64,000 nt of DNA, from positions 18,590,357 through 18,654,356 of the forward strand of contig OZ316892.1 of NCBI GenBank assembly GCA_973895155.1, in the 5' to 3' direction. Source of the DNA: Marsupella aquatica (taxonomy: Eukaryota > Plantae > Marchantiophyta). Made by a program: the position numbers and the translations under genes. Under the pieces are notes generated by a model, which was not told the DNA's origin, made no database searches, and saw only the letters and a list, made by a program, of their open reading frames with translations. Shown piece by piece: positions 3,677 to 54,000 of the stretch (positions are counted from its first letter, which is position 1; every line of letters starts with the position of its first letter).

Positions 3677-5430
3677 ATGTAGCGATAGGCGAGAGCAGCG
3701 ATTACGACGATGAAAGATGGTCAAAGCTGAAGCAAAACCCCTAAAGATGCAGCTTGGCCATACTCTCTTTCCTCACCTCATAGCGCTAGGCATTCAACCT
3801 CCCTCTTCAATGAACCTCACAACAGCTTGAAGGTCGATAGATTTTACCTCGTCTCCTGAGCAGAAACGTCTGCATTAGCTAAACAGAGCCCGGAACAGAG
3901 CTATCGCATTTAGCCTCCCGACTCCAAAATTGAACGCAACACAACCTCCAACTCCCAATGGCAGCTCAGTAGGTTGATCAGCTCGGTCAATGCAGGTCAG
4001 TCGACCTCAATAGCCACACTAGAAGCTCACCGCAAGTCACTCAAAGGTCAGACTAGAAGCTCCGCCGCCTTCACACCGTAGCAAAAAACAATGAGACCAA
4101 TATCGAGCAAGGCAACCCTGTTTGAATATTTGGCGACCATCAGGCTCCACCCCTCCTTTCTCGCTACCGTTCCCCCATGTGATGGTTAAGCTTCTGAGGA
4201 CACAATCAATCGCACAAATGTAGCTTAAAGCAGGACCTCACTAAGCAGACTATCGGTTAGGACCTTATAGACATAGAGATAGATAGGTCAATGCAACCTT
4301 ACTTGGGCCGATGCAGCATGTCTCTTCACAATGTGAAGCAGCGCAGCATTCCTCCACCTAGCTCGCAGTGATCCTCCGCCTTGCTTGCAGTAACCAGCCT
4401 CCGCCTAGCTAGTTTGCACTGTCACGGCTGCAACTTTTTGTGCAATGACTTGGCCCTCCTACCAACTACGAGCTCCCAAAAGTATGTCGAGCAGATGTAC
4501 ACTCAGGCACCACCTCGTAGAGCTCAACTCCAAGTCGGCAGCTCTCACTTGAAACTCAATAGCAGCTTAGCTCACCAGCAGGTTGAAAAGCGACAATGGA
4601 CTCCCCTCAAAACTGATTGGCAGACCTCCACACTGACGCTCGTAGCAGGCCCAATCCTAAACACATTTGCACCCTAAAGTCCAGTCGCGCTCAAACACTT
4701 TCAAACGACCCTGCAGGAAGTTCGCGAAGAGTGCAGCTGGAATGAAGGTCGTCGACTCCCAATTTCCCTCGCAAAACCAACCTCTGCGGCACACTGACCC
4801 TGAACACTTAGGGCAAGTAGTACCCCCAAAATCTCTCGCAAAACCAACCTCCAAGGTACACTGACCCTGAGGGAAAGTAGTACCCCTCACATGTGGGCAG
4901 CCATCGAGTGACTTAGCAAACAGGTTGGTTTGGACATAAAAGAACCAATGCAAATGACTTAGCAAAAAGTTCAATGTGGGGAGAGTGCACTTTGGTCAAG
5001 AACAAGGCCAAATATAGTCAGGTATGAATCCACATTATAAGTGAAAGTACCCACCATTCTGATGAAAACCCCCATATTTATACCCATTATATTTGGACTT
5101 ATTGAACCATGAGTGTGCAATATGTAGTTGCACCGGGAGTTGCATATTAGGGATTGGCATCCGAAATTGGCTAATGGGGTATGCATGCTGACGGAATTTT
5201 AAAAAATGATGTCCAATTCATATTGCACTATTGTGGAGTAACTAACATAACTTACCTATTTCTTACTTACTAGTGTTACAATAGCGACATTGGATAAAGT
5301 TGTAAGCATGACTTCCCACAACCTCACCAAAACTTAGTTGGTATGATGTAACTAACATGACACCCACAAACTTGGAGTCGCATATTTATGAAGGTCTCGC
5401 ACAAGTCACATAGGGGAGGGTCTCAGAATG

Positions 5431-5448
5431 GGTGGTTTTCTTCTAGTG
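5431..5448 (-). mobile_element. Orphan CACTA terminal inverted repeat (right end #1)
   Basis: ggtggttttcttctagtg = reverse complement CACTAGAAGAAAACCACC. It sits exactly where the downstream transposase reading frame is cut off; the putative 3-bp TSD is ccc. No partner end found. Confidence 0.7.
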
Positions 5449-8400
5449 CCCTAAACCCAACTCTGTTAAATTAATACGCAAAGTTGGGGATGACAAGGCT
5501 GATTTACCAATTTGTGTTTTGTCATTCAAAGAAGGACACACCCTACATGATTTTAGGGCTCGTATTGCCTCTACTCTAGACTTTGACTTTGATTTTTGGG
5601 ATGAGAGACTTCCTGGTCGAGTGAAACTTGTACATGAGAAATTAATTGATCTGTCTGAGCTGGATGGAAGAGTTATTGTTGTACAACAAGAACTTGGAGA
5701 TGGTGGGAGGATCCCACCAGTACCCTGTCATCCTTGCACTCCTGCATCATTGGGTCCAAATACTGGGACACCACAACTGGGGCCAACGGCACTAGCACCC
5801 TCCCCTGTAAGGGCTTCTTTTGAGTCACAATTGATGGGAGATGTCCCATCAAAGCTATGGAAAGATGAGTGGATGAGGTTAGAGAAATGGGTACATAAGA
5901 AGGGTTATGGTGATCACAATTGGAGAATTCATACCTGGGATGAGGGGACAGATGTTCGAGGGCATCTGGAGTGTCTTGAATGTAGGGAAACTTATGGCAA
6001 TGCAGACAACTCTCAGAACCCTAAATCCATCTCCAATTGCTTTAGTAATTTTAAGACCAAACACTTGGTCTTCAATAAGCACAAGGATAACTATTGTCGG
6101 AGAAGGGGCATTCCTTCTACTTTGGTTCAGGTAGCAGACATCTCTGAGAAGCCAGAATATGATCATGCAGACGCCATCAAAGTAGGTGTTGAGATAGTTC
6201 AGCGATTGAATGCTGAGCTTGGGGATGATGGCAAACTATTCTCTATTGTTCCTGATCCCAGTACTCCTGAGTATGTAAACAGGTCTTTCCTGTTTAAGGT
6301 TCGCTGTACTGTCTGTGGAATGCTTCACACTGACTTGTGCCCCAAGAAGCTTACCTTGGAGCCCAATTTGAGGACACACTTAGTGAGTCGAGATCACTTG
6401 GATGCATTGGAGACTAGGCATGACACAAAAATGCTTGCCTTGAGGTCTGGGAAGAGGGGCAGGCCAAAGAGGACTGATTCTAGGGACCTACATCCTGGTC
6501 AGAGCGGGATTTTGAAGTTCTTTAAAGATGATGGGTCCCGGACAGGCAGCAATTCAGGTTCAGGTTCAGGTGTGTGTGAATCTGTTGATCTTGGTCTGAG
6601 TTTGCTTTGCTGGGGATTATGGGTAGAGAGAGGTGTGCCTCGACTGTTATGGAAGGGTATATCTTATGATATTTCTGGCATTTTAGATGATCAGTCTGGG
6701 GGAATTACATGGCATTGTGAGCCAAGTTGTTGCTTGGATGTTTTCCATCCAAGTAGAGAGAGTGTTGTGAGTATAGCAGGCTGTTTTAGACACAAGGATT
6801 GCTTGAGGTTATCACAGAATGGAGGAGGATTTGAAAATCTAACTTGTAGTGAATGTGATTCTATAACACTAGAAGATGATTTTCGTGGACGGGTGCACAG
6901 GGAAGCGGAAGCAGTAGTCCACAGAGGGAGCCGAACCACTGCTGGTGGTATATGTTTGGATTATTTGACCAACACAGAGTTAAGAGATCAAGTGCACAAC
7001 CTGAACTCTGTGCGACGAAAAGAGCGTTGGTTGTTATCTTTGCAGGCTCAGAAAGTATGTGCCTTGAGCACCAGGAAACGAAAACTAGAGGAGTTGTTAG
7101 GAGTTGCAGCAGACAGGAAGGATTCGAGATTGTTTCTTAGGAGTATTTTGAATGGACACAGGAATGGTGCATTTGGTGGTAAGGAGGGTTTGTGGGATTT
7201 CTTGAAGGATGTAGCTCGCAATTTAGGCAGGAAGCCAAAAGGTAATCGTTACAGTAATAGGACTCGAGCTATTGCTCAGGCTATGTTCCAATTTGGGGGC
7301 CGTCAAGTTGCTCATTGTTTTGCACGAAACTTGACAGCCCCTAGCCTTGTGACCCTAAAACGTGATAGAGCAAAACTCACACCTTTTTGAACCGGGTTAC
7401 GGAAGGAAACCTTTCAGGAGATTGCTAGAGTGTTGTCTGCTGCAAAGCACTCATTGGGCATTGAGGGGGATGTGCCTGTTATCTTTGCTGAGGATGAAAC
7501 AAGGATCAAAGAACGCCCTAGGTAATTGGAACTGGACATTTTTCCAATTGTTTTTTTAATGACTTTACAAGTAGCACTTGGGTGGAATTGCTGTGATATT
7601 GAAAAATTGCATGTCTGTGTTTCAGGTGGGAGGCAAAGTATGATACTCTCATTGGTTTCTGTGGACCTTCAGAGCAGCATGTATGCTCCTATGGTTTGGA
7701 AATTCTAGTAGGTGAAGGTGATGAGGGGTATGATAAAATTGTAAGTACATTTGAACAATGCCCCAAGTGCATGTATGCCCGAGTTGTGATTGTGAATCCT
7801 CTGCATGAGTCCTTACCTAAATTGGCTGTGTGTGCACTTCCAACTTGTAATAAGTTCACAGCTTCTTGGGTACGAGAGCATTGGGTCCAGTTAAAGGCTT
7901 TTTGGGATGAATATTGTAGAGCTATGGTAGGCCCTTTGCTTGGACATGCTAGTGATGGTGATGCACGTCGCCGAAAGCTGATGCTGGAAGATTACAGAGG
8001 GCAGAATGGATCATACCCAAGGTACGGAGTTGGGTGGGAAGGGTGGACATACTCTGTGTCAATTCTACCAAATGGAGATTTGTATGGCTTTGGTGACCAA
8101 GACCAACCTCATAATGGGAAAAAGATGATAAACCCCTTAGACAGAGTGTCTTCTTTACTAGTGCTAGGAGATCAACATGCATCTTTATCTTATGTAGCTA
8201 ATGTCTACAATCATTATCCAATTCATGAACATGGCATGGCTTGGGATGATGTGAATAGGACTGACCGGCAGAATTGGGCAGGTCCACAACGAATAGCAGC
8301 AAGAAGAGTGCAGCAATGTCTGAAAGATATGTATGAGAGGAGAGATGTACAACATGAACGAAGTTTAGGAACTCAGTTGTACTTGGAGATTTGTGCAGAT

Positions 8401-10017
8401 TACTTAGATATTTTCTTTTCTCCAGTTCATGATTTGAGGTCCCATATTGTGTTAGCATCCAAGGTTTCATTCTTTCTACGTTTGTGGAGATTGTGGTTGA
8501 GGTTTGGTGACCATTCAGTGGGTGGGAACTTTGCAGCACACACTGAGAAAGACATGATGTCTATTCAGGCTTTTCATGATGTTAACATGTCATGTCATTT
8601 CATTGTGCTGTTAATTTGTGCCTTTCGAGATAAGTTCCCACATCTAGGTGTTCCCTTCCACTTGCTAGGTTCAGATTGTTGTGAGATTTTCTTCAGCAAG
8701 GTAGGAGGCATGAGTGGCCATGAGCGGAATTATGATTTTGGCTCTCTATTGGATAGTGCTGTTGGACTGAACTGGCTTGCTGCCCTAGAATATGGACCAG
8801 AAGGCTTGAAGATAGGTCGTTCACATAAGAAACAAGATCATGTATGGGGGAAGATTCATCCTATAGGGGAAGGGGAGGAAGCACCAAATCTACTTGACTA
8901 TTCTCTCATTGAGACTAATGAATTAGTGGTTGCAGCCCTTAAAGAAGGTTTTGTTGCTGCTAAGGATCTTATGCATCAATTGCAGATGTCTCCACGAAGT
9001 TCCTTACCAGCAGCTAGAAAGAGATGGTGGACATGTCCTTGGGTTGTGGAAAGTGAGACCTGGCCACTAGAGGTGGTTCTGAAGGAAGCAATTGTTTGCA
9101 ATGATTCTGAGGAGCAAGTAGAGCACCAACCACCAGACATAGGTCCTCGCCCAACTGGAGATTTTCATGAATTGGAAGATCCTGAGGATGATCTGAATAG
9201 AATAGATGCATGGTTAACAGAACCAGATCCCATTGTTGTTCCTGAGATGCATTCAGATGATGTACACAGAGATGATATACAGTTTGATGTAGACCCCTCA
9301 GATGAGCTTGAGACATTAGGTCATGAAGTTCGGCATGTGTTTGGATCAGTTGTCCATGCTGTAACTAATGTACAGAATCGTACCAAGGTAGTGCCTACTG
9401 TTACTTATGAAGGCAAGGTGATTTACAAATCCACTCTGGTAAGCCAGTTGGTAGGAAATCCGCATTTGTCAAAAGATAGGCTGACAAGGGTGAAACAAGT
9501 GCTATACTATAGTACTGGCAAGAGAAAAGTGCAAGAAGTCAATCCTAACTCATGTTTTGTTGATGTTGGCACTGATTGTGCAATTGCATTTGAGTCTGAT
9601 GATAGTCTTGCTCCAAGTACTAGATCTGGAAAAAGAAAGGGAGGAAAGAATAAGGTTGTGGTGGAGGCAATCTCAGCAGGTAAGAAATATTTTTGGTTGG
9701 GTCGGATTGTCCAAATGAGACAGAAGTATGGCAGTAGGTGGGGCAATTGTCGGTCACCAATTGATTTGATGGATAGGCCAACTCCACTTGCAGGGCAATC
9801 AGGTAACATTTGTGAACTGTTGTTAAATTGGTATAGTCCTATTGGTAAGAGCAAAAGTGAATTCAGATATGATACCACTGATTTGAAATGGATGGATATT
9901 GAAATGGTCATTGCTAGTGTTAGTTTAACCATGAAAGAAGGGGTTATGGATCGTATCTATGTGTTGGATCCAATAGATAGACGTGCTTTGGATCAATATC
10001 TTCAAACAATGGTATGA
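5449..10017 (+). pseudogene. P-element/THAP9-like DDE transposase, ~1,480 codons, one intron (7522-7625), one in-frame TGA (7388-7390), 5' end truncated
   Basis: The frame continues through the TGA to VIFAEDET, then splices (cctag|gt...tttcag|g) into the 7696-10017 ORF. Motif order is typical of P transposases: KGNRYS...APSLVTL, EDET (D1), HASDGD (D2), DQPHNGKKMIN (DxxH), DRQN, GSDCCEIFFS (E). Two N-terminal C2H2-like zinc fingers (CLEC..H..H, CTVC..H..H). Confidence 0.75.
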
Positions 10018-10143
10018 ATATCATGTTACTGTTTAGTTTTTGAGAGTCTGTATATATGTTTTATTTTGTTGTTTAGTTTTTGAGAGTTTGTATATATGTT
10101 TTATTTTGTTAATATTAGTGGGTGTAGTGGGATAGGATAGGGG

Positions 10144-10203
10144 GTGACGGATTGGCAACTTGAGATCCTTTCTCAATTAGGGGTTCAATTCCCCTCCGTC
10201 ACA
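10144..10203 (+). ncRNA. tRNA-like (mascRNA-like) structure downstream of the P-like transposase
   Basis: Acceptor stem GTGACGG/CCGTCAC (7/7) plus discriminator A. T-arm AGGGG-TTCAATT-CCCCT (5/5). Arm TTGAG-ATCCTTT-CTCAA (5/5). D region reduced to ATTGGCAAC. Confidence 0.7.
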
Positions 10204-10272
10204 TGTTACATCTCTCAACATAAGTTTTAAATGGAGTATGGATGGAGCATGGGATTGGTGATCAATGGGTGG

Positions 10273-10371
10273 AATGGATTATTTATGTTGTGACCTTAAA
10301 GGCCATCCCACTTATGCACGTAAGGTTTATATTGGGATGACCTTTTAGGTACACAATATAAATGATGCATT
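10273..10371. repeat. Imperfect ~38-bp inverted repeat (hairpin)
   Basis: Left arm aatggattatttatgttgtgaccttaaaggccatccca (10273-10310) pairs with tgggatgaccttttaggtacacaatataaatgatgcatt (10333-10371); ~22-nt loop. Confidence 0.8.
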
Positions 10372-10663
10372 GAAATGATCAAAGTTTAAGGTCGACAAAG
10401 GTGCAAGAACTGTTGCAGGGCGTGCCATGTCTGACATACGACTTCACAAGGTACTGACATAGACTTATCTTTTCTTTCTAGGCATTTTATATTGATATGT
10501 GACACTTTACTTCACAAATTATAGGGGCAATACAATTTGGATTTTAGACTCTTAGAAGAAAGAAAGAGGGAGGAAAAAAAAATTTCAACTTAATAAGTAT
10601 GGGGGTCTAGGCATGAAAACGTCGCAGGTGATGGGGGGGTCCTCCATATAGTGAGACCCCCGA

Positions 10664-11201
10664 GGGCTTAGCCATATGTGAGGGCCCTTGCATGAGGCAT
10701 TTCCACCTCAACCCGGAGTCTGACCTTGCTGCAGAAAACAACTGTCCAGGGGTGGGCCTCCCGTCAGCACACCAGGGAGGCTGGATGTGCACTGATTGTT
10801 TGGAGAAGCAGGCTAAGTGTGCACAGTGTGGGAAGTTGGGGTCTTATGAGGGCTCTGTTGATGCTCCACCACTTGTTAGGAAATGCCCTGACAGATATTG
10901 TGTGAGGTTCTTTTGTTTTTCATGTTTGCCCGATCTTGCCACAGCTTGCCCACTTCATAAGTGCAAGGCATGTGGTCAGCACGATGAAGATTTCTGGGTG
11001 GACATAGTCCACTGTGTTAGGTGTCCCACCATGTGGCACTTTCATTGTTTGAAGGAGCGTCAAGCAGAAGGCTATGCTTGTGACAGACACATCTATGATC
11101 ACTCTGCACATGGTGTTGATCGATGGATCTTCTATTGTCATCGCCATGCCATAGATCCTACTTTGCACACTCCCATGAGAGATCACATTTCTTGGCTTTG
11201 A
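10664..11201 (+). CDS. EDM2-like composite PHD-finger protein (copy 1; 5' part missing or interrupted)
   Basis: LAICEGPCMRHFH...CTDC..KQAKCAQCGKLGS...CPDRYCVRFF...CPLHKCKAC...CVRCPTMWHFHCL...IFYCHRHAIDPTLHTPMRDHISW follows the EDM2 PHD cassette (CPLHKC, CRRCPKSYHRKCL, IYC..HEID....TP.RDH). No introns visible. Confidence 0.75.
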
Positions 11202-11799
11202 ACCTGAATAATGTACATGCATAGTGCACCTGATGTGGATACCTTGGAGATTGCAGACATTCCAATTTTGAGAAGAAGGACCTCTGTAGGAGAGGATGCT
11301 TAGGCAACAAGTACCCTAAGTTCATTACTTGTTCCTGGGTACATGCCTTCAAAAACTCCCCTTAAGCCTTCTAGGAACCTTTTTTACTCTGCAATCATTT
11401 TGATCACGACTTACATGACACTACTTAAATTAAATCAGGACTTCTCATTATGAGCATATAAGTTACAAGGCTATTTAATTTGCGAGAATTCCCTTAAAGT
11501 GTACCAACATTTTGTATTGTCATTGAATGTCTGCCCATTTACAACATCTGTATGTGGCATCACAAAACAATTGCACTTGTCACCTTCAATATTGTGAAGG
11601 CACATATTCAAACTATGAGGTGCATGCTTGCAGGTGTCTAGTACGTTTGTCCCAATATTTCTCCCATTTGGAATCGGAGCAGAGACTCACCAGACGACTG
11701 GACTGGACCAAGTTATAAACGCAGCATTTTAAGGGCCCTTCGATTATCAGGTGAACGCATTATCTTCCGGTCTGCAGTGATTAGGTGGCCCGTGTGTAC

Positions 11800-12648
11800 A
11801 TGGCCTCTAGGAAACGTACAAAGGTTGACCACCCGCCTCTGTTGGCTGGAATCAAAGCCATTTTGATTCCTGGCCACTATGGGTTCACCCAAGTGAGTTG
11901 GCCAATCGTACAAAAACGATTCTCAGAGTTCCATGGGACTGAAGTCAAGGACATCACTCCACAGACTACACATGTTGTTGTAGGGACATGGCTGGATGTG
12001 ATGAACAAGTGGTCATGGTCCTTCATTGATTCTGCCATTACCAACCAAGGTCTAAAAGTAGTTGAAGTCTCTTGGCTGACCGATTCTGTTAAACATAGGT
12101 GTGTACAGAGTACTGAGCAATATGAGTTGTGGGAGAGTGAGGAGGCCACTGCAGAGGCTTTGGCTGAAAAGGAAGCCTATGAAGCAGCGGCAGAGAAACC
12201 CAACTTTGCTTCTATCCAATATGGACCTGTTGTCAACATAGGACACCATCCTATGCGTGCAGATGCTATATTGAATGAGCATGGCAAGGAGAGAAATACC
12301 ATTATGAAGGGGTTCAGTGTGGTATTTGCAGAAGAAGGAATTGGGGAGACTAAGTGCAGATTGTACAAGTCTATAGTTGTTGAGCTAGGTGGGACAGTGG
12401 AGGAGAGTCTAACAGAAACCTCCACTCATGTTGTAGGTCTGTCATACATGAAAATATGCAGAAAATTCTTTAAGACAACAGTGCGTGATTTTGTCATGAA
12501 CAACAATCTTTGGGTGCTTTCCCCTGATTGGCTTCTGGAATCAGCAGCTAGAGGGAAGCGACAGAATGCTTGGGACTTTGATATTTTTGAGGCCTGGCCC
12601 TCCAAGATTCAGCGGAGATGTATGCTTAGCAAAGGTGGGAGAGAGTGA
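11800..12648 (+). CDS. Tandem BRCT-domain protein, intronless
   Basis: Two BRCT signatures: ITPQTTHVVV...VVEVSWLTDSV..Y and ELGGTVEESLTETSTHVV...LSPDWLLESA..F. NLS-like RKRTK at the N-terminus. Confidence 0.8.
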   Translation: MASRKRTKVDHPPLLAGIKAILIPGHYGFTQVSWPIVQKRFSEFHGTEVKDITPQTTHVVVGTWLDVMNKWSWSFIDSAITNQGLKVVEVSWLTDSVKHRCVQSTEQYELWESEEATAEALAEKEAYEAAAEKPNFASIQYGPVVNIGHHPMRADAILNEHGKERNTIMKGFSVVFAEEGIGETKCRLYKSIVVELGGTVEESLTETSTHVVGLSYMKICRKFFKTTVRDFVMNNNLWVLSPDWLLESAARGKRQNAWDFDIFEAWPSKIQRRCMLSKGGRE

Positions 12649-12788
12649 GGAGTAGGAGTCCCTCATATTTTTGTATAAATCACAATTTTGTAATAAATGT
12701 GATCCTTGAACTAACTCATCTTGTCATGGTTGGTCGCAGTTGAAGTGATTGTTGTTTCCTGCTGCGTGGGGTGTGACTGTGAATCTAC

Positions 12789-13358
12789 TTGCTGGGCTCT
12801 GTTTGGCTGAAGACTTTGGTGGGTATGCTGCCTCTTCCAGACCGTCAGGCCCTATGTAGGGTCCTCCTACGGGTTGCATCGTGCATGGCTACTGCTTGGG
12901 CTTACTTGTGTGGATTGGTAACCAGACAGAGTGTAGCTCCATCCGAGATAATGCCTACAGACCTTGGATGTGTTGTGAATGCTGTGGTGAATGAGGATGC
13001 ACAGTCGGAAGAGGACATTTACTTTTCAGCAGATGAGTTAGACAAGCACGATGCTGTAGGTGGTTCCTTGTTGCCTGATTTGGCAGATGATATAGTTCTT
13101 ACACATGTCTGGCCGAGGGTTCTTGTGGTGTCTGGCGCACAAGATATCTGCAAATATAGACTAATTAGTACCCAGTGGAGGGACTTGGTAGCAACATGTG
13201 CACCATGGAGGGCACTGTTGCCACTGCTTGTAGGCACGGATCGAAGACCACCATGGCATGAGCAGGGTTTAGACCTTGATGACTTAATGTACATGCCTGA
13301 GTACCTCAGGGCTGAGTGGCATCGACAACAGGATTGGTATCCGTATTTGATGTGGTAG
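12789..13358 (+). CDS. F-box-like protein (start uncertain)
   Basis: LLPDLADDIVLTHVWPRV...ICKYRLISTQWRDLV matches the F-box pattern LP.L.DD....I..R....R.VS..W..L. Confidence 0.55.
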   Translation: MLGSVWLKTLVGMLPLPDRQALCRVLLRVASCMATAWAYLCGLVTRQSVAPSEIMPTDLGCVVNAVVNEDAQSEEDIYFSADELDKHDAVGGSLLPDLADDIVLTHVWPRVLVVSGAQDICKYRLISTQWRDLVATCAPWRALLPLLVGTDRRPPWHEQGLDLDDLMYMPEYLRAEWHRQQDWYPYLMW

Positions 13359-13684
13359 TAAGATGAGGACATCTCACACCGGTCTCGCACCTGGCACCTG
13401 TGTCTATGACTATACATGATTGGACTCTGATATGGTCATGGATGTACGTGCAGAGGCAGTACATGTGAGGACAGCGGAGGAGTTGACACCCTCAAACATT
13501 TAGGAATTTTGTCTCATTCACTTGAGAATAGGTACATGACTCAGGCACCTATATTTTTTGTTTTTTTGTTTTTTTGGAACGTTACGTATTTTGGCAAGTA
13601 CAGTCGGGGGTGAAATCCTTAACAGGAAGTGTATTTTTCACTTGCATAATAAAATGACAGGGTGCTGAGTGCGTGTGTATAGTG

Positions 13685-16600
13685 ATGGCTCCAAGGTTGC
13701 CTCTTCACAACCCATTTAGGATTAGGCATCATGATTCTAAATTGTGGATGCGTGAACAAGCCCGGGCCGCCCAAGGTAGGAGTAGGAGGATGAGATGCCC
13801 ATGCACACAGTGCCAAGGATTCAAGTCGTTGAGTTTGAACACTGTGCACCTTCACCTGCTGCGGCATGAAAGGCACCCTCGGTGGAGGGTTTGGAATGTA
13901 CCAGCAGAAGAAGACTCCTCTGATGAAGAGTGGAGAGCTGACTTTGTGGATTCTAATACAGCTAGGCGTAGAGACTACGTAGAGCAGGACATAGACTGTG
14001 CAGAGGATGGTCCTGGGGTCCAACATGAGAACGTGGATGACCAAGATGGAGATGTAGAGGCAGTCACTGAGGACGGTGGGATGGATGTCCCAAGAATGGT
14101 TCAAGAGATTTTTGAAGACCTTGATGCTTTTTACGACACAGTGGAATCAGAAGAGGACAATGAACCGCAGCCACACATTGGCGACGGCCAAGCTGAACCT
14201 GACTTTGACATTGGGGAAGGTGCAGCAGAGAGGGAGTGGGTGTTTGGGGGCCCAAAACACATCAAAGAAGCTTGCATTCCTATCTACGAGGGGTCGAACT
14301 GCTCCAAGCTGGGTTTTGTTGTGTTGTTGTTGAACATCTGTGGCAATCACAATGTTCCCAATATATTTGTGACAGAGTTGTTGACCTTCCTGCGCCGAAA
14401 TGTGTTACCAGATGGTAATTCAATTCCAAAAAATATGTACGAGGCTAGGAAATTGATGTGTAACCTTGGGCTGAACTATGTGTCTATTGACGCATGCCCT
14501 GATGGGTGTGTTCTCTTTCGCAAAGAGCATGCAGATAAATTGACATGCCCTCATTGTGGTAAGCACAGGTACAAGAATGTAGGGAAATGTACACACCCTG
14601 CCAAGGTTCTTCGTCATTTTCCTCTCATTCCTAGACTACAACGTCTGTTTAGATGCCCTGCCATTTCCAAGCTGATGACATGGACTCCTGATAACAAGAG
14701 CAGTGATGGCCTGCAGCGTCACATTGGAGATTCCAACCATTGGAAATTTGTTGATGAGAGGTGGCCACAGTTTGCTGCAGAGAAGCGGAACTTTCGATTT
14801 GGTCTATCACTGGATGGAGTAAACCCACTTGGAGACAAAAACAACCGTTATTCATGTTGGCCGGTTACGCTGCTAAATTACAACCTTCCCCCATGGATGA
14901 CTACAAAGAGGTTTTTTGTCATGATGGTGCTGTTAATCCCTGGACCAGCTTCTGTGACCGAGCAATTCATAGATATCATGTTGGCTCCAGCAGTGGAAGA
15001 GTGGAAGACTTTGTGGATAGAAGGGGTGTTAACCCATGATGTTCTGAAGGGGCTTCTTCGACCCAACCCCTTTAGACTGCATGCAATTTGTTTGCTGGAT
15101 ATAGCAGATTACCCAGGCCATGGCATCATATCTGGACGAGTGACAAAGGGCTATGTGGGGTGCACACCATGTGGGAAAAATGTGACAAGTGAGTGGTCGC
15201 ATGCCCTGCACAGTATGAAATTTCAGGGGCATAGAAGGTATCTGCCTGTTGATCATCCTTACAGGCACACACGGTCTCAAATTGCACACTTCAACAACAA
15301 AACAGAGCTTCGTGGCCCACCATAGAGGGTCACCAGAGAGCAAGTCCTGAGGTGGGCAGCCAGGAAGGCTGATTGGGACAAGAGAAGTGCCACTGATCGA
15401 GAACCTGAGGATCCAGTGGTGAAACACGGTGTGAAAAGACAGACCTTGATGGACTTGGAGTTGGAGTACTGGAGGGTAATGTACTTAGCCTCCAGCCCCT
15501 GTATGATTGCAATTTTAGATTGGAGCAATGGTGGATTGATGTTGGTTACAATCCTCCTATGTGGTTAATTAGTGTTTCTATTGTTGAATTCTTTGCTTTG
15601 TGGAGTGCAGGAATTCGAGCCCAGCAAACACAATGTGGACGTCATGCACATTGAGAAAAATATTTGTGAGAGCTTGCTGAAGTTCTTGTCGGGTGAGAAA
15701 GATACAGGAGCAGTTCGAGCTGATATGCAACAGAAGGGGATTCGCCCTCACCTTTGGTTGAAGCCCCATGCAAGCAATCCCAATGTACTTCTCAAGTTCC
15801 AAGCTCCCTATGTGTGCACACAGGATGAATGGAAGACATTCTTGTATAGATTGAGCTGTCTGAAAGTGCCCTCTGGCTATGCTGGTGCCTTCAAGAAGCA
15901 TATTACAAAGAATAAACTTGGCAGTATGAAAACACATGACTACCATGTGTTGATGCAGCACATTCTGCCCCTATGCCTCAGAGGTCTCATGCAGAAACCA
16001 GTCCGTAATGTCATTCTTCGACTGTGCAATGTATTTTGCCGTATATGTGTGAAAGTGTGGGATCCCCAAGGATTGGAGCAGTTGAAGCAGGATGCTGCTT
16101 ATGTCCTCTGTGACTTGGAGATATACTTCCCCCCTGCTTTCTTTGATGTTATGACTCATCTCCTAATCCATGTGGTAGAAGAGCTAGGGCAGTATGGGCC
16201 AGTCAGTACCAGATGGATGTACCCTATGGAGCGATACATGAAGTTGTTGAAAGGTCATGTGAGAACATACTACAGGCCAGAGGCTTCCATGGCATTGGGG
16301 TACATTAAGGATGAGACGTTGGGATTCCTAACAGAGTACATGGCTGGGTCTGGTGAAGCTATGACAAGAGTTTGGAAATCTGGTGAAGATGATGGAGTGA
16401 GTGGCGAGGTTGTTGAAGGTGTGGGACGTGTTGTTCAGCTGCCTGTTGCGATTTGAGACAAGGCTCATTCATATGTGCTGGCAAACACAGAGCCTATGCA
16501 ACCATGGTGGAGGTGAGTGATTGAATTGACTTGCCTTTGTTGTGATGCTTCTTGTCTGTTCCAAGGGTGATCTTAGGTTGTCATGTGTTGTTTAGACCTA

Positions 16601-17385
16601 ACTATGCCTGTACCTCATATTGCAGGGAATATGATATGCAAAAAGCTGCACACTCTGGGCAGCAGGATCCCTTCCCACAGTTCGAGCAGTGGATTCGGGT
16701 GACAATTCGAGAGCATAGTAGACATCACCCAGATATGGAGAAGGATTTGTATCTTCTATCTGTGCCACCACGATTGTCTATTCTGACCTACAAACGGATG
16801 AGAGCTTATGGAAATCATTATCGAGTGAGGGATGAGCAGGGTGACCATTGTGTATCATATGATTGTGGTTTGATTTCTGTGTTTGAGCAGAGAACCTCTG
16901 AAGAACAGAGGGGGTGGATGAAGATGGGTTACGTGGGGGAGTTGACCGACATTTGGGTGTTGAATTATGGTAACACAAGTGTCCCAGTGATATTGATGAA
17001 GGGATCATGGGTGAAATCAGAGTGGCAGAGACCAAGGGCCACCATGAAGCGTGATCATGATGGGTTCTTGTTGGCCAATTTTAGGTCCAGAGTACCAGAA
17101 TGGTTTGAGCCTTTTGTTTTCCCTAGCCAAGTTGAACAGGCTTTCTTTGCAGATGTGGAGGAGTCACATGGCTGGAGGGTGGTATGCCATAGCCAAGCAC
17201 GGAACAGGCGGATGGATGGAAGTAAAGTAGAGTTCAGTTTGGATGACCATGCTGCATTCGAGCATCCTAGTCATGAGACTGTACTTCCAACTTGGGCAGG
17301 GACTGCCTACATCCCCTTAACATTGAGAGAGACATATGATGAACCTGGGCAAATGGAATATGATGAGGTTGATGATTTGCAATAG
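13685..17385 (+). pseudogene. CACTA-1 TnpD transposase (Transposase_21/DUF4218/DUF4216 type); introns ~15476-15610 and ~16513-16625; in-frame stops at 15323 and 16454
   Basis: CPCTQC; IDACPDGCVLFR..CPHCG; LRHFPLIPRLQRLF; GLSLDGVNP; YNLPPW; DYPG; DVMHIEKNI; KTHDYHVLMQ; FPPAFFDVMTHLLIH; RWMYPMERYMK; EPFVFPSQVEQAFF. Confidence 0.95.
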
Positions 17386-17562
17386 GCAACAGCTGGCGAT
17401 TGGCAAGTATGAGGTTGAGGATGACTACCTGCACAGAGTCACAGAATGGGAATTGCTGCCTGGAATGATGTTTAGGATAGTTGGATATGCATGAAATTGA
17501 TTGATACTTTGAATTTAGTGTGCTGATTCTCCCTGTTTGGTTGTGGGTGCTGTGCAGAAGCT

Positions 17563-20500
17563 ATGGGGGAAGAGGGTGATGGCATGGAGACAGACATGGG
17601 GCTTGGAGAGTGGGGTGAAGAGGAAAGATTGGATATGGATGGAGACCCAGATGCAGGGGGCTCACAGAAAAATGCACCTGTGCAGGATGCACAGGGCCCT
17701 CATCAAGTCCCAGGTAGGTGGGCAGCTAGAGAGAAATCACATAATCCATACCCTAGAAGGAGCCAGAGTTATTGGCAAGGGACGCCTGATAATTATGATG
17801 ATGACTATGATGGAGCAGAAGATGGATGGGATGAATATGAACACCCAGAGCGTGGTAGAGACGGGTACAGAGGGCAATGGAAAGGTGAGGAGGATGATTG
17901 GACAAGTAAGTGCCTTGTGCTAGTGATTTTGTGATGGTAGTAGAGATTTAGCTCAATATGCACTTATCTGATGTGTAGCTAGGGCAAAGAGTTTATCTTA
18001 CAGGTCCATGAGTGTGGCATGTACCTGTTGGTATGCAGACTCTGATTGGGACAATCACGAAAACAACAAAGGCCATCCACGTTCAGATAGGAGGCAATCA
18101 TTCACAGGCGGGAGAAATGCCCCTAATTCATCAAGACAAAGCAATAGGACAGGTGGTCCAGAACCATCTATGCGCCAAGGGAGAGGTAACTTGGTCATTG
18201 CAGAATTGCTCTGAAGTCCACTGTATATTTGGCAGCGGGATTTATGATTCATACTTACCTAATGTAAGTGACTGTAAATGGATCCTGTAAATGTGCAGGG
18301 ACTCCAGGGAGGTTTGGACAATGCAATCCAGGCCGTGGGGGGAGATCAGGCCGTGGAGGGACCCCAGGCCGTGGGGGGACACCAGGCCGTGGAGGGACAC
18401 CTAGTAGCGCTTCAAGGAGTACCAAGGCAGGAGACAGTAACAAATTTGGTAAAGTAGAAGTGAATTCCGAAGGTTGGATAACTCCCACATGTGATGGTAA
18501 GAACCGTTGGCATTCTGACCTAAGAGGAGAAGTATTGCGTTGGTTGGATTTGAGCATTACAGAGTTTAGGAGTCAGAACAAAGCTGATTGGGCTGCTATC
18601 TGCAAGGACATTCTTGAACGGTGGGAGTATGTTGGTAATGATGGTAAGGGCCCAGTTGAAGATTGCATATCAGATTATGCAATGAGGATTTTGAAACAAG
18701 AGAGGCATAGGTTGAAAAGGATGTGGATAGACAATGGTTCTAACAGGAGAATGCCACCACCCCCATCATTGGAACTGGATCAATGGACACGGTTAATCAA
18801 AGGGTTCATGTCGGAGGCTGGACAGAGCAAGAGTGAACTGATGTCAAATGCTCGAGGCAAAGTGAAACACCTTTCACAGGCTGGGAGAGGAAGTTATGCT
18901 CCAGTGAAAGAACAATTGGTAAGGCAGTGACATGCCTGATAGTAAGCCTCAAACTTATCATCTTGCTACCATTATTACATTTTCATTGACAATCAACACT
19001 TGGTTTCATTCATATGTATGTTGATGTGGACTGCAGAAGAAATTGACAGGTGAAGAACCATCAGCACAAGAAGTGAGAGAGGAGTTCATGAAACAAAGGA
19101 GTGAGGTGACAAGTGTAACTTCCAAACAGGTGATTATGTTGTAATTCTGTATGTTCTGTGACTATTTGGCCTTGAGCATCAGAAAGAAATGTAGTAGAAA
19201 GTAAGCAACCAGTTCTTGGGGACAGTTATCTGAGATATGTAAGCTGTGTTATGACAAGGAACTGTTACAACTCTCACAGAGATGTGTGAACGATTGAAGT
19301 CATTAGAGTGTGGACTCCCTCGAGTGGAAAGTAAATTGGCTGATCGTTTGGATATTGTGGAGGCATCTGTAGCGAACCTTCTTGCATCAGTGGAATCTAA
19401 TTTCAAGCTTGTGATTGAAAAATTGGGTGGTTCCCAACCAAACAATGAGGGCAACATTGTACAAAGTGTGCCCTTGTTAACAAAAAAGGGAATTGGCAAA
19501 TCTGACACAGGTATGGAAATGACACCGGCCCATTGTTCATTGTGTCCTATGTTCAAATGTTAGAAGTAAGTTTTCATGAATTGAGTGAATGGTTTGAATG
19601 CAGGAAGAGTGGAGGCAGAGAAGGACCCTGTAATCAATAAGCAGAAGGGCAAGAAGGTTGCTGAGACAGGTAACCTGCTATGATCCAGTACATTACATTT
19701 GAAAAGTGCATGGAGTTTTGTGAAGCTTAAGCCGGTTGGAGGTAATCTTTTCTGTAAGAACTGGTTGGATGAACTGGGATCTGAAGTGACATCATGATTG
19801 ATGTATCAGGTGATTCAAAGAGCAATAATGAAGAAGATGTGCCCAGTGCCTCAGTGACCATAGCCAAGGAGGTATCAGGTAAGCTGATGCTTTAAATTCC
19901 TCTATATGAATGTTGAGAAACAATTCAGTGGTTAATAGATTCAACTTGAATATTGTGGTGTGTTTATTGATCAACAGAAGCAGACATGGAGCATATGGCA
20001 ATGGCAAAGAAGGGGAAGAAGGCTGTTCATAATGGTAAGGAGATAGTGACAACTTTGTGGTTGGTGACATGTACATTTAGCACATGTGATGAGTGATTGA
20101 CTTATGTTGGACATGACACTGAATTGTAGTTGATGCAGAGTTGACAGACTCTCAACCAAGTGGGAGCAGGGTGAAGCGACGTTGAAACTTGGGAGCAACA
20201 TTGGATGCAAGTAAGATTGTAGATGCTTCAATTGAAGCAAGTACAATGTTGGCAGATACTGAGATGATGTCGCAGGGAAATCCTGCTACACAATCAGAAG
20301 TGTCAAATATGGATGCAGATTCTTTGAAGAAGAGTGTAGCCAATTCTCGATCACCAGCACAAAACACTCGTGCCAAAGTCATGACTCGCAACCAAGGTAT
20401 GAATAATGTCATGTATAAGCCACCCAGGAAAGCCAAGAAAAACAGCCAGGGTAAGGTGGAGGTGATAGCCACAGCAGAGCCAGTCCATAATCTTCTATCA

Positions 20501-20734
20501 TGGGAGGATGACTCGCAGGTATGTGTGGGTACAGGCATTTTGCGACCGGACCATGCAAAATTCCATGGCAAAGTGGTCCCGGATGACCATGTAGTAGTGT
20601 TGTTGACTATAGTGATTGTATCTGATTGTAATTTGCCATTTCCGAATAGAGATGATGATCCACCTCAGGAAATAATTGCAGATGCAATAGGATCTCTTGT
20701 GCTTTGGCCATCAGAGTGTGTTAGTCTGCAGTGA
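17563..20734 (+). CDS. CACTA-1 TnpA-like multi-exon gene
   Basis: Series of GT-AG exons. Core ILKQERHRLKRMW...PPPPSLELDQWTRLI...KSELMSNAR (Transposase_24-like). C-terminal VGTG...FHGKVVPDDHVVV...LPFPN...IGSLVLWP domain typical of En/Spm TnpA. Confidence 0.75.
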
Positions 20735-21234
20735 CTGAATGCAAGTGTAGATAGAATCATGTGAATTGTGTCACATTTTGACATTGCCTTGGAAAGATCC
20801 AAGAAATATTTGTACCAATTTTTCCATTTGGTAAAGAGGATGAAGGAGCCGTTGTGTGTGACATTGATATTTCTGAATTCTGTATGTATGAAACAAGTGA
20901 TTGATGTCAAACTATGGCTCTATGGTGATTGTCTATGATACTTGAATCTGTTTTGTATCATTTGAGTATTAGTGTGTATGGTATAGAGGAATACTTTGTG
21001 ACCTTCTTTGTAGTCTATGAAGTTTGAATCTGTGAATTCATATTAGTGTACATGGTATAGAAGATGGCTTTCTGAAACTATGTATTCTAATGTTAACATG
21101 ATGAATGGTGAACTTATAGAGTGAGTTCATTCCAAGTACACAATAAAACATGAATGCAATATGTTATTTGTGCACAAGAGTGGGTTCATTCCAAGTAGTA
21201 TAGTGGGGTCTTCATCACTCATATCCAGTTGACA

Positions 21235-49430: not shown

Positions 49431-49829
49431 ATGGCACCAATTCGAAAGTTGAGAGCCACATTGACTGAACATGACAATGGGACCTACACCTTGAGTTGGC
49501 AGGATCCTGCTGATGTTGGCGATGCTCCACCTATTGTCCGGACTGTCACATTGGAACAAGTCCAAGCTGATTTTCCTGAATTCTCTACTACAATTTCAGA
49601 GTGTCACATGGATCTCAATCCTGTAGTCCCGATTGAACAATTTATCATGTGCGCAGCATACAGTTATGCTGAAACTGTCATGAGAAGGAAAAGATTTCAG
49701 GTCTACACTCACTTGGCTTACATAGCAGGGTTTTCTGATAGAACCAAGTTTCCCGAAGCTGTTGAAGCTTGTGTGAAGGCGACTTGGCATGATGAAGGGG
49801 AGGAATTTGTAGGATTTATTCCAAATTAG
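49431..49829 (+). CDS. KolX-like protein (P2X7 ballast/nanor-type C-terminal motif)
   Basis: RRKRFQVYTHLAYIAGFSDRTKFPEAVEACVKATWHDEGEEFVGF resembles R..AY......G...R...P.CV...IR..FP...Y.GF. Tail-to-tail with the transposase; splice acceptor at 49426. Confidence 0.6.
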   Translation: MAPIRKLRATLTEHDNGTYTLSWQDPADVGDAPPIVRTVTLEQVQADFPEFSTTISECHMDLNPVVPIEQFIMCAAYSYAETVMRRKRFQVYTHLAYIAGFSDRTKFPEAVEACVKATWHDEGEEFVGFIPN

Positions 49830-49913: not shown

Positions 49914-49960
49914 ACTCCTGCTGGTTGGCAGCAAAAGGGGTTCAATTCCCCTTGGGAGTA
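49914..49960 (+). ncRNA. tRNA-like (mascRNA-like) structure downstream of the KolX-like ORF
   Basis: Acceptor ACTCCT/GGGAGT (6 bp) stacked on AAGGGG-TTCAATT-CCCCTT (6 bp). D-like arm GCTG-GTTGG-CAGC; discriminator A. Confidence 0.6.
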
Positions 49961-50149
49961 CATGGCTATGGGTTAGACATGGGTTAGAGTACCACAATTG
50001 CAATTTTTCTAGGAGGAGAACTCTTGTTTGAAATATTGTGCATCACAATTGCACCTGTTACAGGGAGACAACTCTTGCTTTTGTTTGGCAGCATGAAAAG
50101 ATCAATTCCCTTCAGATGTTGACATATTCAATGAAACCAAAATGAGACA

Positions 50150-51024: not shown

Positions 51025-54000
51025 TCATGGACTTGTCACACCATAAATGCGTTCACTTGTTGTGTCCTTCCAACTAGTGGTGCGGTCCACCAATACTCGT
51101 GTTCGAGGAGGACGCTCTCTGACACTTGTATTCACAGGTTTGCGATCATATACCTTCCAAACATGTCTTCTTATATTCTCGTTCCAATCCATGGCAGCAC
51201 AACACAAACGGGCCTCATGGCTTGCCAAAAAATGAATACGCTTGGTGGCATACTTGCCCATGACGGAATGGTAGGTCTCTGACATGAAATTCTCCCGGGC
51301 CATGGTATAAAACCTCATCTTCGCAAGAGTAATGTATTTTTTCATGAACTTTTGCATAGCCTTGTGAGTCTCCCCACCTACATGCACAAAGTACAAAAAT
51401 TCAATAAAAAAGTCATGCATGGAAGTTCAATCATGCTAACATGTGACATAAGTCACAAAAGGAGGTCACAAATTAAATTACTTACCTCTTGCATAGTAAT
51501 GGTCAAGCTGGATAGCTTCTGCTTCCTCAAGATGCTGACAAGGTCTGTCAGATAATCTCGCACATAAACTATGATCCCCGGCCCAATGATCACCACAATT
51601 GCTCAACGCGAAGGCCAGAGATGCAGCGTCCCCCCCACTGCATATTGAACATTCTATAGTCAATTAGGGTAAAATAAACCCAAACCAAACCAACATTAGT
51701 ATTTACACATTATATCAAATTGAAAAGTCACCAAACATGAACATTGTAAATACCTGCTCTTACATCGTCGACAACATACATAAAACCAGGTCTTGAACTT
51801 TGTGGCAATGTTGTGCTGAGACAACTCTGGGTACTTGAGACCATGTGTCGGAATATGTACTAGTTCACCTAGAGGCAATCCACGCATGTCGCCAACTTTG
51901 TGAACAAGTGCTTCCTTCCTAAGGGTTGAATACCCTCTCACTCCCCGTGCCTTGAGCCAATCCTGTAATCTCTTAGCGGTTACTGCTTGCAACTCAGAAC
52001 GGGATGCGGCAGTATCAATGTCAATAGTCACAGTATATGTGGCGCTCACCATCTTCTCCACAAACTTCTTGACAAGGTTTTTGGCCTTGTGCCACAAGTC
52101 CTTCTGGTTCCTAATCTCCATGTCCTCCACAATATTATCAATAGTGGCTTTGTCATCATGGATAACCTCTATGATAGAAATGCCAGCCTCTCTCAGATTA
52201 TCCAATGCCCTCTGAGTACCCTTGTCCTCCATGTGCCAAGCATTTCTCTCCTCTCTTCTAGTAATTGTGACCATCTCAATTACCCTATTATCTTCCATGC
52301 TCAAAATAGAGGTGGTACCATGATAATCGCTCCGAGAAGAATCCCATCGAGTATCCAAATACACTACTAACCCAGGGTCTGTCATAACCAATGCATATAG
52401 TAACTATTAGAATCAAAACTCATCATGACCCAATAAGACTTTGATCCTTGAGTAACTAGAGAAAGTGAAAGAGGGTAAAATAAATTACTTACTAGTCTCA
52501 GTTGCTCGCCTCTGCTGAATAGTATCCCTCAATTGCTGCCACATATGCCTTTTGTTTTCTTCCCATTGCTGTCTCACAACAGCTATCCATCCACCCCAAG
52601 GACGACCACGACCACTCTGAAAGTCATGCCAATGAGCTGCAGTGGGGACATGTAATCCAAGATGCGCGGCAACAGCAGCCAAGGAGGTATAGGTGAGGCC
52701 AGCACAAAGGGTGGAATGATACAACTGAGGGGTAATCATAGGCGAACTCCTCCCAGGCTCATTGTCACCCGTAACAAAAGTCCAGCCATGTCCATCCTCT
52801 CCACAACCAATATGAATAGACCACAACTGATGCAACTCGGACACTCGCTCAACTCTTGGGATCCGAGGACATGCATGTATATGACACCGGGGTAGTAGCC
52901 TGTCAACAAAAGTACCCAACAAGTTGCGATCAAAAAATGCTACCCTGGCTGGTACACGAGGGCTCGTTCTACGAGTCGGGAGTGCGTCGGGAGGTCATAA
53001 CGGCTGAGAGTCAGGTGCGTGAGATGCCTGAGAGTCTGCAACCCGGGATGGCTGATCATTGGCCTCTGGAGATGGCTGAGGGTCTACATCTGGAGAAGGT
53101 CGAGACGTCTGGGAATCGGGGACGATGAACAACTCCTGTAAAAAATGTCACGGATATGAATTAAAGATTGTGTCTCAACAATTGCAAAATTGTAATGGGA
53201 AGCCTTGGATAATGTGAAAGAGCTCAAACCTGGAAGGTATCCCCATCCCCAATGTGGTAAGCTCCTAAAGCTGCAACAACATCTGGATCATCATCCCGAT
53301 ACATGGATTCATCTTCTGCATCTGATCCATATTGCTCTGCAATATTCTCGTCTAAGACAACATCGTCTTCGAGTAGTGCATCCTGGAAGACAATGTTGGG
53401 ATTATACAAAAATAAATACTCCACAAATATGGTTACAATAAATCCTAAGGTAGAGTTTGACCAATAATTATTGACCATATTGGTGGAGGGTTATTGAAGC
53501 CAATTTTCTTCAATAAACACAAACCTGACAATTACAATACAGCACGAGCTTCAATGAAGGGTTTATATATTCAAATATAAATATATGTGCTTGTTTATTA
53601 TGACCCTTGAGTACCCTAATACCTGACCTAATCAGGTTTACTAAATTTTTGTTTCAAATAGAAATTACAATACAGTACGAGCTTCAATGAACCTGGGTTT
53701 ATATATTCAAATATAAATACATGTGCTTGTTTATTATGACCCTTGAGTACCCTAATACCTGACCTAATCAGGTTTACTAAATTTTTGTTTCAAATAGAAA
53801 TTACAATACAGCACGAGCTTCAATGAAGGGTTTATATATTCAAATATAAATACATGTGCTTGTTTATTATGACCCTTGAGTACCCTAATACCTGACCTAA
53901 TCAGGTTTACTAAATTTTTGCTTCAAATAGAAATTACAATACAGCACGAGCTTCAATGAACCTGGGTTTATATATTCAAATATAAATACATGTGCTTGTT

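What the first reader, a model, noticed from the sequence alone, without database searches (positions are those of the whole stretch)
10144..10203. mascRNA-like tRNA mimic in the 3' region of a DNA-transposase gene
Seen: a 60-nt cloverleaf ~125 nt after the stop codon, on the sense strand. It has a perfect 7-bp acceptor stem, a perfect 5-bp T-arm with a canonical TTCAATT loop, a perfect 5-bp third arm, and a D region reduced to ATTGGCAAC that keeps the GG needed for the D/T elbow. It is not a normal tRNA: no D stem, a 2-nt variable region, and a pyrimidine at position 37. Known: vertebrate MALAT1/NEAT1 use such ~60-nt tRNA mimics as RNase P/RNase Z cleavage sites for non-canonical 3'-end formation. 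Inference: this transposon may use a tRNA mimic to define its mRNA 3' end, to punctuate a longer transcript running into the PHD/BRCT/F-box cargo genes, or to release a small RNA. I know of no description of this for plant DNA transposons.
Basis: partly seen in the sequence, partly recalled or inferred. Interest (0 to 1): 0.85.

Follow-up and report, generated by a model that had tools for sequence, protein, structure and literature searches.

The report
tRNA mimic behind plant transposon genes
A 60-base tRNA look-alike, whose stems stay paired while its loops and flanks change between related organisms, sits just behind a plant DNA-transposon gene, a second smaller one sits behind another likely transposon gene nearby, and both likely let the host's tRNA-trimming enzymes cut the transposon's RNA, a trick so far known mainly from vertebrate MALAT1/NEAT1 RNAs.

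Summary
The cloverleaf at 10144-10203 is real (z -4.66) and lies 126 nt behind the stop of a P-element-like transposase (homologue fold). In public contigs of two more distant organisms only this 60-mer aligns. The third-arm stem stays while its loop changes, and a second high-copy family shows two compensatory acceptor-stem changes, read from separate contigs. The window holds a second, 47-nt mimic (49914-49960) 84 nt behind a gene of a likely Kolobok element. It has the same T arm, a different acceptor stem and a mascRNA-type D arm (Rfam mascRNA 32.2 bits, E 1.2e-4). Neither reaches Rfam's cut-offs. No ENE or A-rich tract lies upstream, so this is not the MALAT1 module. The mimic is absent from 17 of 17 distant transposase loci (30-47% identity) that reach the gene's end. 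Best reading: a lineage-specific, selected tRNA-elbow mimic that PRORP and RNase Z likely cut out of transposon transcripts (about 0.5). Main rival: a Pol III mini-gene (about 0.25). No RNA data were available, so cutting is untested.

The parts
5447..10017 (+). P-element-like DDE transposase gene: two coding blocks and an inferred GT-AG intron at 7522-7625. This copy has an in-frame stop at 7388-7390 where most laid copies differ.
   Evidence: ORFs; 133 homologues incl. Riccia, Adiantum and animals; homologue P0006 (41% identical) folds like Drosophila P transposase, E 8.4e-11, TMt 0.71; no Pfam hit; intron inferred from sequence and alignment; variant at 7388
10099..10142 (+). G-U-rich hairpin ending next to the predicted RNase P site; weak, possible 3'-end protection
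   Evidence: -7.2 kcal/mol; z -3.11 for 10096-10143 but only -1.63 for 10085-10143
10144..10203 (+). Element 1: 60-nt tRNA mimic (7-bp acceptor, stemless D region with TTGG, 5-6-bp third arm, 5-bp T arm, discriminator A). It overlaps an A-box-like 11-mer (10145-10155) and a B-box (10182-10192).
10225..10228 (+). T4 run 22 nt behind element 1 (possible Pol III terminator); not seen in the first 24-30 letters behind three divergent copies
10273..10372 (+). Long near-perfect hairpin (41 pairs, 38 Watson-Crick). In two divergent copies it follows the mimic after a different spacer of 13 or 18 nt. It may be a DNA palindrome or an RNA hairpin.
   Evidence: z -8.5; pair types; joints 10207>10273 and 10211>10272; no cover in run X7 for 10206-10522
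49431..49829 (+). 132-aa ORF, likely a KolX-type accessory gene, convergent with a Kolobok-like transposase
   Evidence: 3 homologues, one from Calypogeia fissa; no informative Pfam hit; the KolX label rests on a recalled C-terminal motif and on the gene arrangement
49914..49960 (+). Element 2: 47-nt tRNA mimic, 84 nt after the stop. 7-bp acceptor of different sequence, 3-bp D arm with GUUGG loop, no third arm, T arm identical to element 1 over 17 nt; AATAAA at 49892-49897.
50071..50120 (+). Decayed duplicate of element 2 and its upstream flank; no longer folds (z +1.10)
51028..52994 (-). Exons of a likely Kolobok-type transposase (DxxH, Cys/His cluster, then E), pointing towards element 2
   Evidence: translations; signature as described in passages of PMC9587614; no Pfam support; superfamily label inferred

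Best explanation
It is a conserved tRNA-elbow mimic behind a P-like transposase gene, which the host's nuclear protein-only RNase P likely cuts at 10143/10144 and RNase Z likely cuts after 10203, and which would thereby sever the transposon's Pol II transcript behind the stop codon. Shown: the fold, the position, the conservation pattern and a second mimic behind another gene. Inferred: the sense transcript runs through the element. It keeps exactly what PRORP is reported to read (acceptor, T loop, D-loop GG) and lets the anticodon-like loop drift or vanish. The cut would fix where the RNA ends and detach it from what follows: a 41-pair hairpin behind element 1, a convergent transposase gene behind element 2. 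Both would otherwise give double-stranded RNA that invites silencing. The released 47-60-mer would probably receive CCA as a by-product. Whether the cut raises transposase output (clean end, less dsRNA) or limits it (loss of a downstream poly(A) site) is open; I favour the first.
For: (1) Island conservation: in runs X7 and X9 (organisms D and E) all 4 contigs laid on 10128-10222 fall within 10142-10206, and X7 record 11 spans 10142-10204 with 207 unlike letters upstream. (2) Third-arm stem kept with three unrelated loops (window, X7 record 13, X9 record 14), and the sixth pair flips from A-U to U-A in X9. (3) A second family (X2 record 4, depth 2337; also in X5 and X7) has acceptor pair 4 changed from A-U to G-C and pair 6 from G-C to A-U (loose ends). 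(4) The 3 of 3 listed substitution sites (10167, 10168, 10178) are unpaired, the one deletion (10171) is at the loop edge, and none is listed in the T arm among 28 laid contigs. (5) Element 2 has an unrelated but fully paired acceptor, a mascRNA-type D arm (E 1.2e-4) and no A-box. Both elements are sense and 84 or 126 nt behind a stop; some copies lack about 44 nt of the element-1 spacer. (6) X4 contigs join the region after the stop to 10136-10207 across a diverged spacer (depth 93.5, side 35) and 9592 to 10172 (depth 95.2, side 25). (7) PRORP needs the D/T elbow (G18, G19, C56) and not the anticodon arm, and cuts t-elements (passages of PMC3858429; PMC4836652).
Against: No RNA evidence at all. 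No ENE or A-rich tract protects the cut end, and an mRNA without poly(A) would normally be unstable. Element 1 has no D stem, and PRORP1 cut a substrate without a D arm more than 1000-fold slower (PMC4836652 passage), so a stemless D loop may not suffice. The two halves of the compensatory acceptor were printed from different contigs and runs (X2 5' side, X7 3' side). The tool lists only differences away from contig ends, so the variant list is incomplete. Two of the four joints used have a side under 30, which the tool flags as often spurious. For the second family and for X7 record 13 and X9 record 14 the neighbouring gene is unknown. Element 1 and its two readable variants (3 of 3) carry an A-box-like motif. 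The element is absent from 17 of 17 distant transposase loci and from 7 of 7 tested with Rfam, so it is not needed by the family at large.
Confidence: 0.5

Rival explanations
1. A self-standing Pol III mini-gene carried by the transposon. An A-box folded into the acceptor strand and the T-loop B-box would drive a short transcript that is trimmed like a pre-tRNA, possibly releasing the downstream hairpin as a small-RNA precursor (TMER-like), or TFIIIC binding would serve as a chromatin barrier.
For: A relaxed A-box match at 10145-10155 (such matches occur at about 1 per 1000 bases), a perfect B-box at 10182-10192 and T4 at 10225. The acceptor changes seen in two variants fall at positions that the A-box leaves degenerate, and the T at position 2 and the A at position 8 are kept (consensus recalled). 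The hairpin follows after a 13- or 18-nt spacer in divergent copies. Herpesvirus TMERs are a precedent (PMC4337559 passages). Many human tRNA genes lack T4 within 50 bp (start of the abstract of PMC3141230).
Against: Element 2 has no A-box and only about 11 nt between its GG and the B-box. The A-to-B gap in element 1 is 26 nt, shorter than in tRNA genes (recalled: about 32). No T4 in the first 24-30 letters behind three divergent copies. Both elements are sense to a gene and at a similar distance from its stop. The hairpin has no cover in X7 while the mimic has. A pure DNA role would not explain the compensatory pairs.
Confidence: 0.25
2. An intronic tRNA-like element as in Arabidopsis GUT15: the stop codon overlaps a 5' splice site at 10012, and the mimic lies in a 3' intron where it modulates splicing and is excised as a small RNA.
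For: The sequence at 10009-10017 is donor-like and is followed by U-rich sequence; an alignable stretch continues to 10046 in a divergent copy; some distant loci (L006, L009) show intron-like sequence at the gene's end (by eye); GUT15 precedent (PMC6152437 section 5 and passages).
Against: Close homologues end at the same place; no donor match in 49860-50010 around element 2 (49830-49859 was not scanned); no open spliced frame into the PHD exon was found by eye.
Confidence: 0.12
3. A neutral relic: a decayed tRNA gene or a tRNA-derived SINE head that was captured and amplified passively with the transposon.
For: The T arm is an ordinary tRNA arm: 20 of 56 matches in viral contigs lie in ARAGORN tRNAs, so the 17-nt identity between the two elements can reflect constraint or a common donor. 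High copy number can come from hitch-hiking.
Against: Stems are kept while loops and flanks diverge, with compensatory changes. No target-site duplication, tail or shared body: 3' flanks differ at or just after the acceptor end between X5 record 10 and X7 record 12. The duplicate at 50071-50120 has lost the fold while element 2 has kept it.
Confidence: 0.1

Closest known systems
mascRNA / menRNA (Rfam RF01684) of vertebrate MALAT1 and NEAT1
   Same: About 60 nt, 7-bp acceptor, reduced D region with UUGG, 5-bp T arm, sense at a 3' end. Element 2 matches the model's D arm and T arm position for position (32.2 bits).
   Different: Below the family cut-off. No upstream ENE or A-rich tract. Behind protein-coding transposon genes of a plant and not a lncRNA. 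Element 1 lacks the D stem; element 2 lacks the third arm.
Plant mitochondrial t-elements cut by PRORP1 and RNase Z
   Same: tRNA-like elements that separate mRNAs and may lack the anticodon arm (PMC3858429 and PMC4836652 passages).
   Different: Those are organellar; these are nuclear and on mobile DNA.
Arabidopsis GUT15 tRNA-like sequence
   Same: Plant nuclear tRNA-like element made from a Pol II transcript and CCA-tagged, with a conserved T loop (PMC6152437).
   Different: GUT15 keeps canonical D and T stems and lies in an intron of one lncRNA; the passages read mention no transposon (0 occurrences of 'transpos').
Gammaherpesvirus 68 TMERs; plant tRNA-Gly-snoR43.1 dicistron
   Same: A tRNA-like unit followed by a structured RNA that RNase Z releases.
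   Different: Those are Pol III units with a full tRNA fold; here the promoter type is unknown and the hairpin is less widely conserved than the mimic.
ENE/dENE elements of plant transposons (e.g. rice hAT TWIFB1)
   Same: Structured RNA behind a transposase gene that protects or shapes the transcript's 3' end (PMC13541005 passages).
   Different: ENEs bind poly(A) in a triple helix and involve no tRNA mimicry or cleavage.

Membership tests
mascRNA-menRNA (RF01684) | Score at or above the gathering threshold of 42.5 bits | tested here: not met
   23.0 bits (element 1); 32.2 bits (element 2)
mascRNA-menRNA (RF01684) | 7-bp acceptor stacked on a 5-bp T arm with a canonical T loop | tested here: met
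   both elements
mascRNA-menRNA (RF01684) | 3-bp D arm directly after the acceptor strand, with UUGG in its loop | tested here: inconclusive
   met in element 2; element 1 keeps TTGG but has no D stem
MALAT1-type 3' module | [quoted passage not shown] | tested here: not met
   no A-run of 3 or more in 10018-10143; no significant fold in 10017-10126; feature as described in PMC8457004 passages
MALAT1-type 3' module | Cleavage by RNase P and RNase Z, then CCA addition | not testable with these tools
   only contigs, no RNA holder listed
canonical tRNA (RF00005) | Full cloverleaf with D stem; detected by ARAGORN or Rfam | tested here: not met
   ARAGORN 0 genes; 20.8 bits against 29
canonical tRNA (RF00005) | Conserved 7-nt anticodon loop | tested here: not met
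   three unrelated loop sequences of 6-7 nt; arm absent in element 2
tRNA-derived SINE | Target-site duplication, shared body and A-rich or simple-repeat tail | tested here: not met
   none (by eye); 3' flanks differ at or just after the acceptor end
Pol III type-2 gene / TMER | Internal A and B boxes at a workable spacing, with a T-run terminator | tested here: inconclusive
   element 1: relaxed A-box, B-box, T4; element 2: B-box only
Pol III type-2 gene / TMER | Pol III transcription | not testable with these tools
   needs TSS mapping or ChIP
P superfamily DNA transposon (host element) | DDE transposase with P-type fold and DxxH signature | tested here: met
   invariant D120, D167 and H170; best fold matches of homologue P0006 are 6P5A and 6PE2
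P superfamily DNA transposon (host element) | Terminal inverted repeats and an 8-bp target-site duplication | tested here: inconclusive
   one candidate, 5066-5082 against 10592-10608 (15 nt, 2 mismatches), among about 20 chance-level hits; no clean TSD
Kolobok (host of element 2) | DDE transposase with C/DxxH and a zinc finger before E, plus a KolX accessory gene | tested here: inconclusive
   motifs seen in translation and compared with passages of PMC9587614; no profile hit; TTAA target site not tested

The most novel reading that the evidence does not exclude
In this land-plant lineage, unrelated DNA-transposon superfamilies (P-like and Kolobok-like) share a portable family of minimal tRNA mimics. 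They use the host PRORP and RNase Z to end their own transcripts and avoid RNA silencing. This would be the first nuclear mascRNA-like 3'-processing of protein-coding RNAs outside vertebrates, with a convergent 43-nt counterpart between genes of some phages.
Probability: 0.35. Interest if true: 0.85.

Novelty: new variant of a known kind. Interest (0 to 1): 0.64.

Why it matters
Nuclear RNAs that borrow the tRNA-trimming enzymes are few: a 2025 abstract calls MALAT1 and NEAT1 the only lncRNAs matured this way (PMC12941219, search listing), and the plant case read here is GUT15. A high-copy, naturally varied set of 47-60-nt mimics on transposons would give a natural mutational scan of the smallest substrate that nuclear PRORP accepts, a new way for transposons to manage their transcripts, and compact cleavage linkers for multiplexed RNA expression in plants. 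It is directly testable with one in vitro cleavage assay and one 3' RACE.

Tried and rejected
No whole genome is held for the window. The look-up of sequencing runs: no RNA holder listed; this says nothing on expression. Distant transposase loci: 80 fetched. A strict descriptor gave 3 hits and a relaxed one 3 hits in those loci, none a sense element behind the gene. ARAGORN found 0 genes in 53 of the 80 loci. Rfam found no tRNA or mascRNA match up to E 10 in 7 of the 80 (element 1 itself scores only E 3.3 in a search of that size). The element-1 3' half has 0 matches in viral contigs. A primer role for LTR elements: no PBS-like complement of either 3' end in the window. The 15-nt T-arm pattern with up to 3 mismatches gave 2 matches against 2.14 expected, so that statistic alone is not significant, although both matches are exact. 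A sequence search of PDB with the transposase profile gave 0 hits. The protein atlas gave no answer. Ends of the host element were not resolved. The hairpin has no homologue in the window or the 80 loci. Earlier findings: none. An alignment of the two elements with four phage elements was made but not used to build a model. Literature searches for a prior description listed none by title or abstract start; the library lacks most subscription papers, and no supplements were read.

Full report
Observation. It folds at -24.6 kcal/mol, z -4.66, with 0 of 200 shuffles as good. ARAGORN calls no tRNA in the window. Rfam's best matches are mascRNA-menRNA (23.0 bits, cut-off 42.5) and tRNA (20.8 bits, cut-off 29). 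A structural descriptor hits twice in the window and in 0 of 400 shuffles; it was written after seeing this element.

Host gene. The element lies 126 nt behind the stop of a two-exon gene (5447-10017) with no Pfam match. It has 133 homologues, the nearest named ones from Riccia (up to 46-50% over most of the length), with further ones in Adiantum and animals. I therefore infer a non-seed land plant. Homologue P0006 (41% identical) was modelled at mean pLDDT 81.9, and its best structural matches are the Drosophila P-element transposase complexes (E 8.4e-11, TMt 0.71). Summed contig depth in the thousands over 5000-10500 in runs X2 and X4 marks a high-copy repeat, and it rises about tenfold beyond about 10520, over the PHD, BRCT and F-box-like genes that precede a CACTA transposase. 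The element's termini were not resolved.

Conservation. Contigs of four runs (X2, X5, X7, X9; four organism codes) were laid on 10128-10222; 28 contigs were laid and 14 pieces printed. In X7 and X9 all 4 laid contigs fall within 10142-10206. X7 record 11 covers 10142-10204 with 9 other letters and one gap and has 207 unlike letters upstream. X7 record 13 (depth 414) and X9 record 14 (depth 250) align from 10172; their loose 5' letters show the same third-arm 5' strand with different loops, in X9 with the sixth pair flipped from A-U to U-A. Record 13 also shows the acceptor 5' strand with one C-to-T change and the D-region TTGG kept. A second family (X2 record 4, depth 2337; X2 record 5; X5 record 10; X7 record 12) aligns at 10158-10196. 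Its 5' strand (X2 loose end) and 3' strand (X7 loose end) pair perfectly, with pair 4 changed from A-U to G-C and pair 6 from G-C to A-U. These two halves were printed from different contigs, so the double change is inferred and not read on one molecule. The three listed substitution sites are unpaired and none is in the T arm; the tool omits differences near contig ends. In the wider lay one X4 contig aligns to 10046, again at 10136-10207, and again from 10273 after an 18-letter replacement; X2 shows a similar 13-letter spacer; another X4 contig joins 9592 to 10172. Two of these joints have sides under 30 and may be spurious. Against generality: of 80 metagenomic transposase loci, 17 reach the gene's end (30-47% identity, several near-duplicates) and none carries the element. 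The mimic is lineage-specific.

A second mimic. The descriptor found 49914-49960: a fully paired 7-bp acceptor of different sequence, a 3-bp D arm with a GUUGG loop, four unpaired bases in place of the third arm, and the same 17-nt T arm. It scores 32.2 bits against mascRNA-menRNA (E 1.2e-4 in 601 bases; E 0.013 and top hit in the whole window), with D and T arms in register with the model. It lies 84 nt behind the stop of a 132-aa ORF whose three homologues include one from Calypogeia. That ORF faces a spliced transposase with DxxH, a Cys/His cluster and E. I read this as a Kolobok element with KolX from the description in PMC9587614 (passages) and recalled motifs; no profile confirms it. A duplicate at 50071-50120 has lost the fold.

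Mechanism. What is kept in both elements and all readable variants is the acceptor/T stack, the T loop and the D-region GG. What drifts or disappears is the anticodon-like arm. This is the pattern reported for PRORP recognition: contacts at G18, G19 and C56, anticodon arm dispensable, D domain needed (PMC3858429 passages; PMC4836652 passages). The latter also states that Arabidopsis and Physcomitrella have PRORPs and, for the moss, no apparent RNase P RNA. I therefore infer that both are substrates for PRORP and RNase Z (about 0.75). I put 0.5 on action in cis on the Pol II transcript, because both sit sense and at similar distances behind stops and element 2 lacks a usable A-box. The proposed benefit, cutting the RNA off from a 41-pair hairpin (10273-10372, z -8.5) or from a convergent gene, is inference from the layout only. 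The MALAT1 protective module is missing (PMC8457004 passages). A weak G-U-rich hairpin ends next to the predicted cut, and element 2 has AATAAA 16 nt upstream, so how the cut end is stabilised is unknown. The stemless D region of element 1 is a real risk for PRORP cleavage.

Rivals. A Pol III mini-gene (0.25) fits the A-box-like acceptor strand of element 1 and two variants, the B-box and the T4 at 10225, and would resemble herpesvirus TMERs if the hairpin is the product (PMC4337559 passages). It fails for element 2. An intronic, GUT15-like setting (0.12) rests on a donor-like sequence over the stop codon (PMC6152437 section 5 and passages). A neutral tRNA or SINE relic (0.1) is disfavoured by the conservation pattern, although the T arm itself is a common tRNA arm (20 of 56 viral matches lie in ARAGORN tRNAs).

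Novelty. It likely works like mascRNA or a t-element but is not a member of RF01684. Six literature searches listed no description of tRNA mimics in DNA transposons; I saw listings and abstract starts for most papers and passages for eight. The library omits most subscription papers. Verdict: real, selected, a new variant of a known kind, function untested; interest 0.64.

Noticed in passing
L083, L087, L096, L112, L115, L123, L128, L135 (about 294-337 in each): Eight of 55 viral loci (6 distinct) carry an unannotated 43-44-nt armless mini-tRNA (7-bp acceptor, TTTGG, short linker, the same T arm). It is intergenic, starts at or just after a stop codon and lies about 20-30 nt before the next ATG, with a C-G/U-A change in the extended T stem. 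No Rfam family reaches its cut-off. Possibly an RNase P punctuation site in phage operons.
   Followed up: partly
window 10632-23486 (+): A run of same-strand genes, NSD-type PHD fingers, twin BRCT, an F-box-like ORF, CACTA tnp2 and tnpA, and a second BRCT ORF, under one positive GC-skew block: likely a large CACTA element with chromatin-related cargo.
   Followed up: no
window 36073-39966 (-): A second CACTA transposase gene in the opposite orientation.
   Followed up: no
window 10664-10713 and 63790-63839: A 50-nt inverted repeat (92%): another copy of the PHD gene begins at the window's right end on the minus strand.
   Followed up: no
window 57999-62700: Array of about 578-bp repeats (7 copies) with short ATGAC/GTCAT palindromes; similar short motifs occur in the hairpin at 10273-10372.
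   Followed up: no
window 5061-5082 and 10592-10620: An imperfect inverted repeat with the same 8-mer next to both arms, though not flush with the right arm; it may mark the ends of the P-like element.
   Followed up: partly
window 10018-10110: A 40-nt U-rich tandem duplication between the stop and element 1; some copies lack about 44 nt here, which would bring the spacing close to the 84 nt seen for element 2.
   Followed up: partly
window 24969-32590 (-): Copia-type gag fragment, a NIF-phosphatase-like ORF and a 949-aa coiled-coil ORF.
   Followed up: no
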